Part shown: positions 36,780 through 39,663 of the stretch, piece after piece | Layout: each line of letters opens with the position of its first letter | Numbering within the stretch: the stretch's first letter is position 1 | Source of the DNA: an uncultured Bacteroidales bacterium | GTDB lineage: Bacteria; Bacteroidota; Bacteroidia; Bacteroidales; FEN-979 | DNA length: 64,000 bases | Reading direction: 5' to 3' | Assembly: GCA_903903985.1 (NCBI GenBank) | Contig: CAIVAT010000153.1 | Location: 57,352-121,351, forward strand | The notes under the pieces: generated by a model | The model's input: only the letters and a program-made list of their open reading frames with translations | What the model was told of the DNA's origin: nothing | Databases searched by the model: none | Made by a program: the position numbers and the translations under genes

Positions 36780-36824
36780 CTGATAGTCACCACCAGGACA
36801 GCTATTTTTTTCACGCAGGTATTT

Positions 36825-36905
36825 CACGCAGATTTTCGCGGATTCTATTCGCAGATGAACGCAGATTTCTGCTGATGTAAAATCTTTTCCGCGAAAATCT
36901 GCGTG
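36825..36905 (+). repeat. CGCAGAT-word array forming an 18-bp perfect inverted repeat (probable AOR terminator region)
   Basis: cacgcagattttcgcgga (36825..36842) is the exact reverse complement of tccgcgaaaatctgcgtg (36888..36905). More copies of the word flank it, and a T-run follows at about 36935..36944. Confidence 0.7.
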
Positions 36906-36961
36906 AAAAATCTGCGAAAATCTGCGTGAGAAAATTTTTTTTTGTGAATTAAAAAATTGTT

Positions 36962-36969
36962 TATGTTTG
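36962..36969 (+). promoter_or_regulatory. -7 promoter box (TATGTTTG) for the trp leader and trpB2
   Basis: TAnnTTTG match, with a TTTG about 20 nt upstream (36941..36944). Lies 29 nt before the leader ATG. Confidence 0.5.
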
Positions 36970-36997
36970 CAACCTGTTTGGCAAAATAAAATTTTCA

Positions 36998-37063
36998 ATG
37001 AATAACAAAATCAATACGAATCTTAATTTTTGGTGGTGGCGCTCTATAATCAACAGAACGTAA
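36998..37063 (+). CDS. candidate tryptophan attenuation leader peptide (MNNKINTNLNFWWWRSIINRT)
   Basis: 21-codon ORF with three consecutive TGG codons at 37031..37039. Followed by two terminator-like hairpins and then trpB2. Confidence 0.5.
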   Translation: MNNKINTNLNFWWWRSIINRT

Positions 37064-37099
37064 ACATCAACTTTTTCCTTATCTGAACGAATATCTGAA

Positions 37100-37130
37100 A
37101 GGCTTGCTGTTTACAACGGCAGGCCTTTTT
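37100..37130 (+). terminator. leader hairpin 1 (aggcttgctg / cggcaggcct) followed by T5
   Basis: 10-bp stem with two G-U pairs (37100..37109 / 37117..37126), a 7-nt loop, and a T-run to 37130. Confidence 0.5.
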
Positions 37131-37148
37131 AGATTTATAGAAACGAAA

Positions 37149-37185
37149 CGGCTTGCCAGGTTAAAAAGGCAGGCCGCTTTTTTTT
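37149..37185 (+). terminator. leader hairpin 2 (cggcttgcc / ggcaggccg) followed by T8: candidate attenuator terminator
   Basis: 9-bp stem (37149..37157 / 37168..37176), a 10-nt loop, and T8 at 37178..37185, 24 nt before the trpB2 ATG. Confidence 0.6.
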
Positions 37186-37208
37186 ATAAACCTTAAAATT
37201 CCAAAATC

Positions 37209-38516
37209 ATGACAAAAATCAGAAGAATTCAATTGAATGAGCGCGAAATGCCGACACAATGGTATAATATCCAGGCAGATATGCCAAATCCGTTGCTTCC
37301 GCTCCTGCATCCCGGCACGAAACAGCCAATACAGGCAGCCGACCTCGAACCCTTGTTCGCCCGTGCGCTGATCGAACAGGAAGTTTCAACTGAACGGTAC
37401 ATCGATATTCCCGAAGAGGTACAGGATCTTTACCGGCTTTATCGTCCAACTCCGCTTCACCGTGCATATAACCTTGAAAAAATGCTTGACACGCCGGCGA
37501 AGATCTATTACAAAAATGAAAGTGTCAGCCCTCCCGGATCTCATAAACCAAACACGGCGATTCCCCAGGCATTTTACAATTACAAGGAGGGTGTAAAAAA
37601 AATGACGACCGAAACCGGTGCCGGCCAGTGGGGCAGTGCCTTGAGCTTTGCCACTAATTTCTTTGGAATTGAATGCAAGGTCTTTATGGTTAAAGTAAGC
37701 TATCAACAGAAACCTTACCGGAAATCGATGATGAACCTATGGAATGGTTCCGTCATTCCCTCCCCCAGCAATGAAACCAACGCCGGCCGTGCCTTTCTCG
37801 CCGAAGATCCTAACCATCCGGGAAGCCTTGGCGTTGCCATTTCAGAGGCGATTGAAGTTGCTGCGACGAATGAAGACACCAAGTATTCCCTGGGAAGCGT
37901 CTTGAACCATGTATTGCTTCATCAAACGATCATCGGGCTTGAAGCTGTTAAACAGCTGGAGATGACGGGTGATTTCCCCGACCTGGTGATCGGGCCTTTT
38001 GGTGGTGGTTCTAACTTCGGCGGGTTATCTTTTCCTTTTTTACGATATAATTTTACTGAAGGGAAAAAAACACGTTGCATTGCTGTTGAATCAACTTCCT
38101 GTCCCAAATTGACAAAAGGTAAATTTGAGTATGATTTTGGAGATACTGCAGGCATGACTCCGCTGATTCCCATGTATACACTCGGTCATAAATTTATTCC
38201 TCCGGCAATTCATGCAGGCGGACTCCGTTACCACGGGGCCGGGGCGATCGTAAGCCAGCTGTTGAAAGATAAACTGATCGAAGCCCGTTCGGTTGAACAA
38301 ACCGAAAGTTTTGAAGCGGCTGTCACCTTTGCACGCGCTGAAGGAATGATCCCTGCCCCGGAAACATCACACGCCATTGCACAGGCTATCAAAGAAGCGA
38401 TGATTGCCAGGGAGGAAGGCGTTGCAAAGACCATTCTCTTCAATTTTTCAGGCCATGGTTTGCTGGATATGGGTGCCTATGATGAATATTTTGCAAAAAA
38501 CCTGCAAGTACAATAG
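37209..38516 (+). CDS. trpB: TrpB2-type tryptophan synthase beta-like PLP enzyme
   Basis: 435 aa with the N-terminal extension typical of TrpB2. PLP-lysine motif PPGSHKPN, plus GGGSNFGG and RYHGAG. Confidence 0.85.
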
Positions 38517-38566
38517 ATTCCGCAAAGCCTGATTGTCTATCTTTGTCTCTATAGCGATCTGTGCCT

Positions 38567-38612
38567 TCTCTGTGGTTCTCTGTGAAAATAATTGCACAGA
38601 GAACCACGGAGA
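38567..38612 (+). repeat. CACAGAGAA/CACGGAGAA-word hairpin between trpB2 and the Rieske gene
   Basis: tctctgtggttctctgtg (38567..38584) pairs 17/18 with cacagagaaccacggaga (38595..38612). Further word copies run to 38634. Confidence 0.7.
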
Positions 38613-38661
38613 AAAAGCACGGAGAACCGCAGAGATGTTTTTAATAACAATTCCGGGTGAA

Positions 38662-39663
38662 ATGATATACAATCAATGGTATGTGATCCTCTGGTCAAAA
38701 GAGGTTAAGAAAAACCAGGTTATCGGGATCAAACGTTTTGGGGAAAATCTTGTAATTTGGCGCGATAGCCAAGGCAATCCGGGGGCGGCCAGGGATCAGT
38801 GCCCCCATCGCGGCATAAAACTCAGCCTGGGTAAAATCAAGGACGATCATCTTCAATGCCCGTTCCACGGATTTGAATATAACCAGGCGGGCGAATGCAA
38901 ACTCATCCCGGCCAACGGCAAGGCTGCTGCTGTTCCTGAGCACATCAGGGCAGCGGCTTACACGGTAAATGAAGCCAACGGGTTTATCTACCTCTGGTAT
39001 ACGGATGATCCCGTGAGGGTCGCGAACTTTCCCCCATTGCCATGGTTCGATGACATGGATCCTTCCCTGGCATGGTCAGAGATGAAAGACCACTGGAAAG
39101 CGCATTATTCCAGGGTCATTGAAAACCAGCTCGATGTGGTTCATGTGCCCTTCATCCACCGCACCACCATTGGACGCGGAATCGGACCAGTAGTGAACGG
39201 GCCCTATATCAAGGTTTTTGAGAACGGATTGAGTTACTGGCCAAAAAACGAACAGGACCATGGTCAAACGCCGCTGCGCCCCGATCAAATGCCGGAACCT
39301 GCGAACAAGGATACCTTTTTGACATTTCTGTTCCCGAATATCTGGCAAAACCACATCATGGACAAACTGCGGGTAGTTATTGCCTTTGTGCCTGTGGATG
39401 AGACCAATACGATATTATACCTGCGCACTTACCAGAAAATGGTGACCATCCCGGTTCTCAGGAACATCTTTCTCTGGATGACCGGAAAATATAACCGGGT
39501 GATCCTTCACCAGGACCGGCGTGTAGTTGAAACCCATCAGCCACAAGCCACTTCGTTCAGGATGCACGAAAACCTTATCCCCGGTGATTTCCCGGTGGTG
39601 CTATACAGAAAGAAAAGGGAGGAGTTAAAAAATAAAGCTGTTATTTCAGCGTTTAAATCATAG
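38662..39663 (+). CDS. Rieske [2Fe-2S] non-heme iron oxygenase (PaO/KshA-like alpha subunit)
   Basis: CPHRG..(17 aa)..CPFHG Rieske motif, then a catalytic-domain stretch NQLDVVHVPFIH. The start is 38662 or 38635. The longer ORF (38533) translates the word repeat. Confidence 0.8.
   Translation: MIYNQWYVILWSKEVKKNQVIGIKRFGENLVIWRDSQGNPGAARDQCPHRGIKLSLGKIKDDHLQCPFHGFEYNQAGECKLIPANGKAAAVPEHIRAAAYTVNEANGFIYLWYTDDPVRVANFPPLPWFDDMDPSLAWSEMKDHWKAHYSRVIENQLDVVHVPFIHRTTIGRGIGPVVNGPYIKVFENGLSYWPKNEQDHGQTPLRPDQMPEPANKDTFLTFLFPNIWQNHIMDKLRVVIAFVPVDETNTILYLRTYQKMVTIPVLRNIFLWMTGKYNRVILHQDRRVVETHQPQATSFRMHENLIPGDFPVVLYRKKREELKNKAVISAFKS

What the first reader, a model, noticed from the sequence alone, without database searches (positions are those of the whole stretch)
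36941..37208. Ribosome-mediated Trp attenuator (WWW leader peptide plus tandem hairpins) in front of a stand-alone trpB2
A TAnnTTTG promoter (36962..36969) is followed by a 21-codon ORF (36998..37063, MNNKINTNLNFWWWRSIINRT) with three consecutive TGG codons. After it come four related segments: S1 aggcttgctg (37100), S2 cggcaggcct (37117), S3 cggcttgcc (37149) and S4 ggcaggccg (37168). S1:S2 and S3:S4 are hairpins followed by T5 and T8. S2 can alternatively pair with S3 (ggcaggcc/ggcttgcc, 8 bp with one G-U), which is the classic 1:2 / 2:3 / 3:4 logic. Attenuators of this type have been predicted computationally in some Bacteroidetes/Chlorobi. This one controls a TrpB2 (indole-salvage type) gene rather than a trp operon. 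The leader stop lies about 35 nt before S1, so the ribosome-coupling geometry is not the textbook one.
Basis: seen in the sequence. Interest (0 to 1): 0.65.

Follow-up and report, generated by a model that had tools for sequence, protein, structure and literature searches.

The report
Two-terminator tryptophan attenuator before trpB2
A short tryptophan-rich leader gene and a chain of six mutually exclusive RNA segments with two terminators probably switch on an indole-salvage tryptophan synthase (TrpB2) only when tryptophan is scarce; the kind of switch is already known in Bacteroidota, but the relay through two hairpins is a new twist.

Summary
All coordinates are exact, and the leader ORF (MNNKINTNLNFWWWRSIINRT) and both hairpin-plus-U-run elements are present.

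The ORF, with 2-3 tandem UGG codons, recurs in all 17 genus-level trpB2 loci found and in many other Bacteroidales.

The stop-codon region (GUAAACAUCAACUUUUU, 37060-37076) pairs either with the Trp-codon region (1:2 hairpin) or with the whole 5' arm and loop of hairpin 1 (antiterminator). The ribosome geometry is therefore textbook.

Hairpin 2 is specific to this genus and looks like a duplicate of hairpin 1. S2:S3 pairing holds in 98.5% of cells and shows one compensatory change. In one relative hairpin 1 has lost its U-run, so control must pass through S2:S3. I read this as a six-segment relay attenuator.

All 25 genomes of the genus lack TrpA, TrpC and TrpB1 but carry tryptophanase, so TrpB2 is the only Trp-forming enzyme and works from indole.

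The kind is known: the Bacteroid-trp leader, Rfam RF01692. That model scores only 21.5 bits here against a threshold of 49.

Verdict: a new variant of a known kind, of moderate interest. No transcript or experimental data were available.

The parts
36962..36969 (+). Bacteroidota-type -7 promoter box TATGTTTG (TAnnTTTG). A TTTG lies at 36941-36944, about 18 nt upstream.
   Evidence: Sequence. TATGTTTGCA is nearly invariant in the 11-sequence genus alignment. Function as a promoter is inferred.
36998..37063 (+). Leader ORF of 21 codons, MNNKINTNLNFWWWRSIINRT*. The three Trp codons are at 37031-37039 and the stop UAA at 37061-37063.
   Evidence: The frame, the length (21-22 codons in most relatives), the WW(W)R core and the stop position are conserved in 17 genus-level sequences. 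W-rich leaders also occur upstream of trpB2 in other Bacteroidales.
37034..37069 (+). Helix 1:2 (anti-antiterminator, possible pause hairpin). UGGUGGCGCUCUAU (37034-47) pairs with ACAGAACGUAAACAUCA (37053-69).
   Evidence: It is in the MFE fold and has -9.4 kcal/mol on its own. It is 92.6-98.5% paired across 17 sequences, with one covarying pair. RNAalifold predicts it independently. It corresponds to the hairpin of Rfam RF01692.
37060..37076 (+). Segment 2, the antiterminator 5' strand GUAAACAUCAACUUUUU, which contains the leader stop codon.
   Evidence: With the Trp-codon region masked and the transcript cut at 37116, the MFE is this strand paired with 37097-37114, as 7+3+6 bp at -11.4 kcal/mol. 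Masking up to 37073 (ribosome at the stop) abolishes the pairing. The core is 99.3% paired in 17 sequences but almost invariant. Across other lineages the stop region covaries with the terminator loop.
37097..37131 (+). Terminator 1. S1 is GAAAGGCUUGCUG, the loop is UUUACAA, S2 is CGGCAGGCC, and U5 lies at 37126-37130. Positions 37097-37114 double as the antiterminator 3' strand.
   Evidence: -19.4 kcal/mol. 100% paired in 17 sequences. It is the only terminator in relatives outside the genus. It is unique in the organism's own genome.
37118..37157 (+). Relay helix S2:S3. GGCAGGCC (37118-25) pairs with GGCUUGCC (37150-57), 8 bp including one G-U. No U-run follows it.
   Evidence: The hairpin has -15.6 kcal/mol. 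It is the MFE when the antiterminator is held and S3 has been transcribed. It is 98.5% paired in 17 sequences, with A-U changed to G-C in L003 and L111. It is required for control in L115, where hairpin 1 has no U-run.
37149..37185 (+). Terminator 2. S3 is CGGCUUGCC, the loop has 10 nt, S4 is GGCAGGCCG, and U8 lies at 37178-37185. It looks like a duplicate of terminator 1 and is specific to the genus.
   Evidence: -16.7 kcal/mol. 93.9-98% paired, with 3 pairs changed on both sides. It is absent from leaders outside the genus.
37209..38516 (+). trpB2, the stand-alone TrpB-like PLP enzyme (435 aa) that is the regulated gene.
   Evidence: NF009057 scores 719 bits and TIGR01415 653 bits, both above their cut-offs. 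The downstream neighbour varies among relatives.

Best explanation
This is a leader-peptide (ribosome-mediated) transcription attenuator that senses charged tRNA-Trp and controls the stand-alone trpB2. It is built as a chain of six segments:
- 1: the Trp codons
- 2: the stop-codon region
- S1, S2, S3 and S4: the four arms of the two hairpins

When Trp is plentiful, or when the leader is not translated, the ribosome runs to the UAA and covers segment 2, or helix 1:2 forms. S1:S2 then folds and terminates at U5. Polymerases that escape meet S3:S4 plus U8.

When Trp is scarce, the ribosome stalls on UGG 37031-39 and unwinds segment 1. Segment 2 pairs with S1 and the loop as these emerge. S2 is left free and pairs with S3 as soon as S3 is made. 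S4 then has no partner, neither terminator forms, and trpB2 is transcribed.

Shown here: the sequence elements, their conservation, their mutual exclusivity and their energies. Inferred: the promoter, translation of the leader, termination at the two U-runs, the order in which the helices fold, and the response to Trp.

The genus lacks trpA, trpB1 and trpC but has tryptophanase. The likely physiological sense is to make Trp from indole only when Trp is short, which also avoids a futile cycle between tryptophanase and TrpB2.
For: Leader ORF:
- The ORF with 2-3 tandem UGG codons is conserved in 17 genus-level loci, including loci with different upstream genes.
- It is also present in other Bacteroidales families.
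- A leader of the same type, MNLTSVNKFWWWHLQLQQS*, with a terminator precedes the trpB1-first trp operon of relative G025.

Geometry:
- A stall at UGG frees 37053-76.
- A ribosome at the stop covers up to about 37073, which hides the antiterminator strand.

Energies in kcal/mol:
- helix 1:2: -9.4
- antiterminator: -11.4
- T1: -19.4
- S2:S3: -15.6
- T2: -16.7
These are proportions like those I recall for E. coli trpL (from memory).

Structure counts on 17 sequences:
- The terminated conformation is 96.1% paired, against 32-49% when the partners are slid.
- The antiterminated conformation is 99.0% paired, against 21-43% when slid.
- RNAalifold recovers 1:2, T1 and T2.

Antiterminator across lineages: the stop region covaries with the terminator loop.
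- GUAAACA / UGUUUAC in this genus
- GUCGUAAACAAC / GUUGUUUACGAC in L031
- CGUGUCGUAACC / GGUUACGACACG in L032
- UCGUGAGA / UCUCACGA in L067 and L103; GUCGUGAG / CUCACGAC in the G025 trp operon
The duplex z-score is negative in 11 of 12 lineages.

Relay:
- In L003 and L111, S2 (A to G) and S3 (UU to CC) changed together. This keeps S2:S3 paired while creating a C.A mismatch in S3:S4.
- S2 shows 3 variants, whereas S4 shows 5.
- In L115 hairpin 1 has no U-run (..GCCUCUCGCGCUUUAAAG), so only hairpin 2 can terminate. That sequence is identical in three separately assembled runs.

Context:
- TrpA, IGPS and TrpB1 are absent from all 25 genomes of the genus.
- Tryptophanase is present in all of them. 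The organism's own copy scores 856 bits on NF053783 against a cut-off of 750.
- A Bacteroides TrpB2 homologue rescues E. coli delta-trpA through indole cross-feeding (PMC11535334).
Against: - There are no transcript data.
- Within the genus the antiterminator pairs are almost invariant, so they carry no covariation. Support for them comes from comparisons between lineages whose registers differ.
- At equilibrium T1+T2 (-36.4) is far more stable than AT+S2:S3 (-23.6). The model therefore depends on folding order, which I could not simulate.
- Covariation for S2:S3 rests on one lineage event plus the L115 variant. S2:S3 complementarity is also what a simple duplication of hairpin 1 would leave behind.
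- Transcription-translation coupling in this uncultured Bacteroidales lineage is assumed.
- The Rfam model of the known family scores below its threshold.
- A crude scan found no other amino-acid leader peptide in this genome.
Confidence: 0.75

Rival explanations
1. This is a classical four-segment attenuator that acts at terminator 1 only. Hairpin 2 would be an unregulated back-up terminator or a neutral duplicate, and its complementarity to S2 would be a leftover of the duplication with no relay function.
For: - S1 resembles S3 and S2 resembles S4, as a duplication would give.
- Relatives outside the genus manage with one terminator.
- Only one compensatory event supports S2:S3.
- With the antiterminator held, T2 is 3 kcal/mol more stable than S2:S3.
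Against: - An unregulated efficient terminator (U8) would lower induced and repressed expression alike, yet it is kept in all 17 variants.
- L115 has lost the U-run of hairpin 1 but keeps the leader, segment 2 and S1-S4. There the leader can reach its only terminator only through S2:S3.
- The S3 changes in L003 and L111 follow S2 rather than S4.
- S2 is more conserved than S4.
Confidence: 0.17
2. The promoter-to-terminator unit is mainly a small RNA gene or a small-protein gene that acts in trans, as rnTrpL and peTrpL do in Sinorhizobium. Control of trpB2 would be secondary or absent.
For: - The terminated product would be a discrete RNA of about 150 nt or about 205 nt with its own promoter.
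- There is precedent for trans-acting Trp attenuator RNAs and peptides (PMC7968998 and PMC7298713, abstracts listed).
Against: - The element is always directly upstream of trpB2, whatever the other neighbours are.
- The peptide is poorly conserved outside the WW(W)R core.
- No target is known.
- A trans function would add to attenuation rather than replace it.
Confidence: 0.05
3. The ORF is a chance ORF and the hairpins are ordinary terminators of the upstream aldehyde:ferredoxin oxidoreductase gene, or a repeat element.
For: The hairpins lie in the spacer downstream of the AOR-family gene, and a dispersed word-repeat block sits just upstream.
Against: - Two or three tandem Trp codons recur at one conserved position in 17 variants and in other families.
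- The element persists where the upstream gene is different.
- A conserved promoter box lies between the AOR gene and the ORF.
- The hairpin sequence occurs only once in the genome.
Confidence: 0.02

Closest known systems
Bacteroid-trp leader motif (Weinberg et al. 2010, Genome Biol 11:R31; Rfam RF01692)
   Same: - It belongs to the same phylum.
- It has a short ORF with two or more UGG codons.
- It has a hairpin that includes the UGG codons and a downstream terminator whose 5' arm reads AAAGGCUUGUC, close to S1 here (GAAAGGCUUGCUG).
- It is presumed to work by peptide-leader attenuation.
- The model aligns end to end (positions 1-131) with 36981-37108.
   Different: - The score is 21.5 bits against a gathering score of 49, and none of 13 related loci reaches the threshold.
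- The published motif was described upstream of trpB and trpE. In relative G025 a leader of the same type precedes a trp operon that begins with trpB1. Here the gene is a stand-alone TrpB2 in a genus with no trp operon.
- The published description gives only a 'loosely conserved hairpin'. It has no antiterminator model and no second terminator.
Escherichia coli trpL attenuator (Rfam RF00513)
   Same: - The logic is 1:2 / 2:3 / 3:4 with tandem Trp codons in segment 1.
- The stop codon sits so that a terminating ribosome covers segment 2.
- The relative stabilities of the helices are similar (the E. coli values are from memory).
   Different: - There is no sequence relationship, and RF00513 gives no hit.
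- Two further segments (S3, S4) form a second terminator reached through a relay.
- The promoter is of the Bacteroidota type and there is no Shine-Dalgarno sequence.
- It controls one salvage gene rather than trpEDCBA.
Chlamydia trachomatis trpRBA indole-salvage operon with Trp-dependent attenuation (PMC7755916)
   Same: A Trp auxotroph uses a tryptophan synthase beta activity to make Trp from indole supplied from outside, and expression responds to Trp through translation of Trp codons (abstract seen; details from memory).
   Different: - The enzyme there is TrpBA, not TrpB2.
- Control involves the repressors TrpR and YtgR.
- No tandem-terminator leader is involved.
Leaders with two attenuators or terminators in series: Salmonella mgtCBR (PMC3641672) and the rimP-leader of some Gammaproteobacteria (PMC2965389)
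   Same: More than one termination or attenuation element lies in a single leader.
   Different: - mgtCBR uses two separate short ORFs that sense different signals.
- In the rimP-leader no leader peptide is described in the passage I read.
- Here one leader peptide would control both terminators through shared strands.

Membership tests
Leader-peptide (ribosome-mediated) transcription attenuator | A short ORF with tandem codons for the regulatory amino acid, conserved among relatives | tested here: met
   WWW at codons 12-14. WW or WWW is present in all 17 genus-level variants and in other families.
Leader-peptide (ribosome-mediated) transcription attenuator | An intrinsic terminator (GC-rich hairpin plus U-run) between the leader ORF and the structural gene | tested here: met
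   T1 has -19.4 kcal/mol plus U5, and T2 has -16.7 kcal/mol plus U8. They are 100% and 94-98% paired. Termination itself was not measured.
Leader-peptide (ribosome-mediated) transcription attenuator | An antiterminator helix that excludes the terminator and uses a strand also able to pair with the regulatory-codon region | tested here: met
   37060-76 pairs either with 37034-47 or with 37097-37114. The antiterminator is the MFE of the truncated transcript when the Trp codons are masked. It is 99.3% paired and covaries with the loop between lineages. This evidence is computational only.
Leader-peptide (ribosome-mediated) transcription attenuator | A stop codon placed so that a terminating ribosome occludes segment 2 | tested here: met
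   UAA at 37061-63 lies inside the antiterminator strand 37060-76. Masking up to 37073 removes the antiterminator. The in-frame stop lies inside or next to the strand in L067, L103 and the G025 trp leader as well.
Leader-peptide (ribosome-mediated) transcription attenuator | Read-through that rises when the amino acid or its charged tRNA is limiting, and that depends on leader translation | not testable with these tools
Rfam RF01692 Bacteroid-trp | A covariance-model score at or above the gathering threshold of 49 bits | tested here: not met
   21.5 bits, E = 4.1, over 36981-37108, matching the full model length. Thirteen related loci give no hit at the gathering threshold. I treat the element as a divergent relative in kind, not as a formal member.
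Rfam RF00513 Trp_leader (enterobacterial) | A match to the covariance model | tested here: not met
   No hit even at E up to 10.
TrpB2 (TrpB-like PLP enzyme, indole-salvage type) | A score above the cut-off of the NCBIfam equivalog model, and below the cut-off for TrpB1 | tested here: met
   NF009057 scores 719 against 366 and TIGR01415 scores 653 against 519. TrpB1 (TIGR00263) scores 128 against 392. Enzyme activity was not tested.

The most novel reading that the evidence does not exclude
One leader peptide controls two terminators in series through a domino of alternative helices (2:S1, then S2:S3). Within the same clade the first hairpin can lose its U-run and become a pure relay element, as in L115. 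This would show how attenuators gain extra stages by duplicating a terminator.

The switch gates the only Trp-forming enzyme of a Trp-auxotrophic, tryptophanase-positive genus. It would therefore decide the direction of an indole/tryptophan cycle that depends on indole in the community.
Probability: 0.55. Interest if true: 0.6.

Novelty: new variant of a known kind. Interest (0 to 1): 0.45.

Why it matters
Leader-peptide attenuation in Bacteroidota is predicted (RF01692), but I found no experimental dissection of it in the library searched.

This locus gives a compact, testable model with a complete set of alternative helices and natural variants that differ in informative ways:
- one terminator in other families;
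- two terminators in this genus;
- a first hairpin without a U-run in L115.

It also gives regulatory evidence that TrpB2 serves tryptophan supply. The gene is put under tRNA-Trp control in organisms that have no other route to tryptophan and that themselves make indole with tryptophanase. That bears on indole cross-feeding in anaerobic communities.

Tried and rejected
- Rfam scans at E up to 10 and at the gathering thresholds gave only a sub-threshold RF01692 match and noise.
- The simple promoter/terminator scan missed both hairpins.
- A DNA-pattern scan of metagenome contigs gave only 3 loci, of which one was new.
- The tool for finding public RNA runs was closed, so no 3'-end or expression data could be obtained.
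- A sliding-window search for the best partner of hairpin 1 gave mixed positions. In several sequences the G-rich Trp codons also score well against the C-rich 3' arm. I therefore relied on the test centred on the stop codon and on truncated folds.
- My first column assignment for the outer 1:2 helix was off by one, so helix 1 should be ignored. It was corrected.
- MAFFT misaligned S4 of L114 in alignment A2, which lowers the figure for T2. A hand-anchored table gives 8 of 8 core pairs there.
- A crude genome-wide scan for other amino-acid leader peptides (runs of His, Phe, Thr or Leu/Ile/Val followed by a terminator) found none that was convincing.
- The idea that the CGCAGAT word block upstream is a trpB2-specific operator was dropped, because the words are a dispersed repeat family.
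- Co-transcription of the Rieske oxygenase gene with trpB2 was considered. The adjacency is not conserved, and a 146-nt spacer with a hairpin separates the two genes.
- Two of the encoding-contig look-ups returned no DNA.

Full report
**1. Observation**

The sequence is exactly as described.
- TATGTTTG lies at 36962-36969.
- A 21-codon ORF runs 36998-37063 (MNNKINTNLNFWWWRSIINRT*), with UGG codons at 37031-37039.
- Hairpin 1 is S1 37100-09 and S2 37117-26, followed by U5.
- Hairpin 2 is S3 37149-57 and S4 37168-76, followed by U8.
- The ATG of the next gene is at 37209.

The leader folds much better than shuffled versions: -57.5 kcal/mol, z = -3.67, 0 of 200 shuffles as good. Both hairpins are in the MFE.

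The gene is a TrpB2: NF009057 scores 719 bits against 366, TIGR01415 scores 653 against 519, and TrpB1 scores only 128 against 392. Upstream lies an aldehyde:ferredoxin oxidoreductase family gene, and downstream a Rieske oxygenase gene.

**2. Conservation**

I searched the 40 nearest genomes, one genome per species collection, a metagenome pattern scan, and a protein search followed by contig look-ups. Together these gave 17 distinct genus-level versions of the leader.

All 17 keep the following:
- the promoter box;
- an ORF in the same frame, of 21-22 codons in most;
- two or three consecutive UGG codons followed by an Arg codon;
- the stop embedded in CGUAAACA;
- hairpin 1 and hairpin 2.

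The element stays attached to trpB2 where the upstream or downstream genes differ.

Outside the genus, W-rich leaders with one terminator precede trpB2 in many other Bacteroidales contigs: L011, L031-34, L036, L038, L044, L047, L067, L071 and L103. In relative G025 a leader of the same type (MNLTSVNKFWWWHLQLQQS* plus terminator) precedes the trpB1-first trp operon.

**3. The coupling element that was missed**

The MFE already shows the Trp codons and the following codons (37034-47) paired with the end of the ORF and the stop region (37053-69). This helix 1:2 has -9.4 kcal/mol, is 93-98% paired in 17 sequences, and is predicted independently by RNAalifold.

I then cut the transcript at 37116, where S1 and the loop are out but S2 is not yet made, and masked the RNA up to 37043-37049 to imitate a ribosome stalled with UGG in the A site. 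The MFE becomes GUAAACAUCAACUUUUU (37060-76) paired with GAAAGGCUUGCUGUUUAC (37097-37114). That is 7+3+6 bp at -11.4 kcal/mol, and it sequesters all of S1. Masking up to 37073, to imitate a ribosome at the UAA, removes it.

The stop codon lies inside the antiterminator strand, so the geometry is that of E. coli trpL. The stabilities are -9.4 for 1:2, -11.4 for 2:3 and -19.4 for 3:4. From memory, these proportions resemble those of E. coli.

Within the genus these pairs are nearly invariant (99.3% paired), so they give no covariation. Between lineages the stop region changes together with the terminator loop:

| Lineage | Stop region | Terminator loop region |
|---|---|---|
| This genus | GUAAACA | UGUUUAC |
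| L031 | GUCGUAAACAAC | GUUGUUUACGAC |
| L032 | CGUGUCGUAACC | GGUUACGACACG |
| L067, L103 | UCGUGAGA | UCUCACGA |
| G025 trp operon | GUCGUGAG | CUCACGAC |

Duplex energies of the stop window against the terminator beat shuffles in 11 of 12 lineages, with z down to -4.9.

**4. The second hairpin**

Hairpin 2 occurs only in this genus and resembles hairpin 1 arm for arm: GAAA-GGCUUGC against GAAACGGCUUGC, and GGCAGGCC+U against GGCAGGCC+U. It is most simply a tandem duplicate.

S2 can pair with S3 (8 bp, hairpin -15.6 kcal/mol), and no U-run follows S3. With the antiterminator held, S2:S3 is the MFE once S3 has been made. With S4 present, AT+S2:S3 (-23.6) is only 3 kcal/mol above AT+T2 (-26.6). 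T1+T2 (-36.4) is the global minimum. As in all attenuators, the outcome would be set by the order of folding.

Four observations speak for a functional relay rather than a leftover of the duplication.
- (a) S2:S3 is 98.5% paired in 17 sequences, against 21-43% for slid controls of the whole antiterminated structure.
- (b) In L003 and L111, S2 changed A to G and S3 changed UU to CC. This turns A-U and G-U into G-C in S2:S3. S4 did not follow, so S3:S4 acquired a C.A mismatch.
- (c) S2, which would have two partners, shows 3 variants. S4 shows 5.
- (d) In L115 (TrpB2 81% identical) hairpin 1 is followed by CUCUCGCGCUUUAAAG instead of a U-run, and its stem has grown into the former U-run. In L114 the tail is UCUUUUGA. 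In both loci the stem pair at the former U-run changed A-U to G-C. Leader, segment 2 and S1-S4 are all kept, and only hairpin 2 has a U-run (U9). The L115 sequence is identical in three separately assembled runs. In that organism the leader can reach its only terminator only through 2:S1 and then S2:S3.

**5. Model**

There are six segments.
- Trp-replete, or no translation: [1:2] or a ribosome on segment 2, then [S1:S2]+U5 and [S3:S4]+U8, so termination twice over.
- Trp-starved: the ribosome sits on segment 1, then [2:S1] and [S2:S3], S4 stays free, and transcription reads through.

The second terminator would lower leakage in the repressed state without costing induction.

The sequence, the conservation and the energetics are shown here. 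Promoter use, leader translation, termination and the Trp response are inferred.

The U-rich stretch just after helix 1:2 (37071-76) may also serve as a hairpin-dependent pause that synchronises polymerase and ribosome. That is speculation by analogy with E. coli.

**6. Physiological context**

- None of the 25 genomes of the genus has TrpA (PF00290), IGPS (PF00218) or TrpB1. Six genomes of other families in the order have all three, and all 14 control genomes gave hits for TrpA and IGPS.
- Ten of the 25 genomes carry trpB2.
- All 25 carry a tryptophanase homologue. The organism's own copy passes the TnaA equivalog model NF053783 with 856 bits against 750.
- A Bacteroides TrpB2 homologue rescues E. 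coli delta-trpA by using indole from neighbouring cells (PMC11535334).

TrpB2 is therefore the only Trp-forming enzyme here, and it must work from indole. Putting it under tRNA-Trp control makes sense, and it would also prevent a futile cycle with tryptophanase. That last point is my inference.

**7. Comparison with what is known**

Weinberg et al. (2010) described the 'Bacteroid-trp leader'. It lies upstream of trpB and trpE in Bacteroidetes, has two or more UGG codons and a loosely conserved hairpin, and was presumed to be a peptide-leader attenuator. It is Rfam RF01692.

The model aligns end to end with 36981-37108, including the AUG, the UGG run, helix 1:2 and the AAAGGCUUG start of the terminator. 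It scores only 21.5 bits against a gathering score of 49, and none of 13 relatives' loci reaches the threshold. The kind is thus known, and this is a divergent representative.

In the library I searched I found no description of three things:
- the explicit antiterminator with the stop codon inside it;
- the second terminator and the relay;
- the placement before a stand-alone TrpB2 in an auxotrophic, tryptophanase-positive genus.

A Flavobacterium transcriptome paper reports 'strong clues' of leader-peptide attenuation (PMC9723704).

**8. Verdict**

This is a new variant of a known kind.

My confidence that it is a Trp leader-peptide attenuator is about 0.85. My confidence that the two terminators are linked by the S2:S3 relay is about 0.6. 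Interest is moderate (0.45): ordinary in principle, but a clean and testable multi-stage design with informative natural variants.

Noticed in passing
window 36811-36945: The block of CGCAGAT / AAAATCTGCG words just upstream of the trpB2 promoter belongs to a dispersed repeat family. GAAAATCTGCGTGA occurs 18 times on 10 contigs of this genome. Similar word blocks sit upstream of the trpB2 promoter in relatives L003, L004/L112, L005, L111 and L113, even where the upstream gene differs.
   Followed up: partly
window 38517-38662: The real start of the Rieske oxygenase gene is probably ATG 38663, not TTG 38533. The 146-nt spacer after trpB2 holds a word-repeat hairpin (about 38567-38612) followed by GAUGUUUUU. 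The adjacency of trpB2 and the Rieske gene is not conserved in the genus.
   Followed up: partly
own genome C18:74991-76337 (outside the window): This is a tryptophanase gene (NF053783, 856 bits against a cut-off of 750). Homologues are present in all 25 genomes of the genus, although none of them has a trp operon.
   Followed up: partly
own genome C90:39317-39937 (outside the window): A divergent, isolated phosphoribosylanthranilate-isomerase-like gene lies here. Pfam PRAI scores 75.8 bits, and the gene is below every NCBIfam equivalog cut-off. It occurs in only 3 of the 25 genomes of the genus. Its role without the rest of the pathway is unclear.
   Followed up: no
L023 (relative G025, contig C26), reverse strand upstream of trpB1: The trp operon of this relative begins with trpB1. 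It is preceded by a TAnnTTTG box, the leader MNLTSVNKFWWWHLQLQQS* and a terminator whose loop and 3' arm (CUCACGAC) are complementary to the stop region (GUCGUGAG).
   Followed up: partly
L055 and L059 (Ignavibacteriales contigs), upstream of trpB2: W-rich short ORFs (...TAWWWLSC* and ...TWRWRL*) lie behind TTGACA-type promoters, but no clear hairpin plus U-run follows them. This may be a different kind of Trp-sensing leader.
   Followed up: no
L036, between the leader terminator and trpB2: About 250 nt of extra sequence with several long perfect hairpins is inserted between the attenuator and trpB2.
   Followed up: no
window 37126-37134 and 37158-37169: The U-run of terminator 1 (CCUUUUUAG) is complementary to the A-rich loop of hairpin 2 (GUUAAAAAGG). 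With the antiterminator held, this pairing appears in the MFE and would also prevent terminator 2 from forming. Its conservation was not examined.
   Followed up: no
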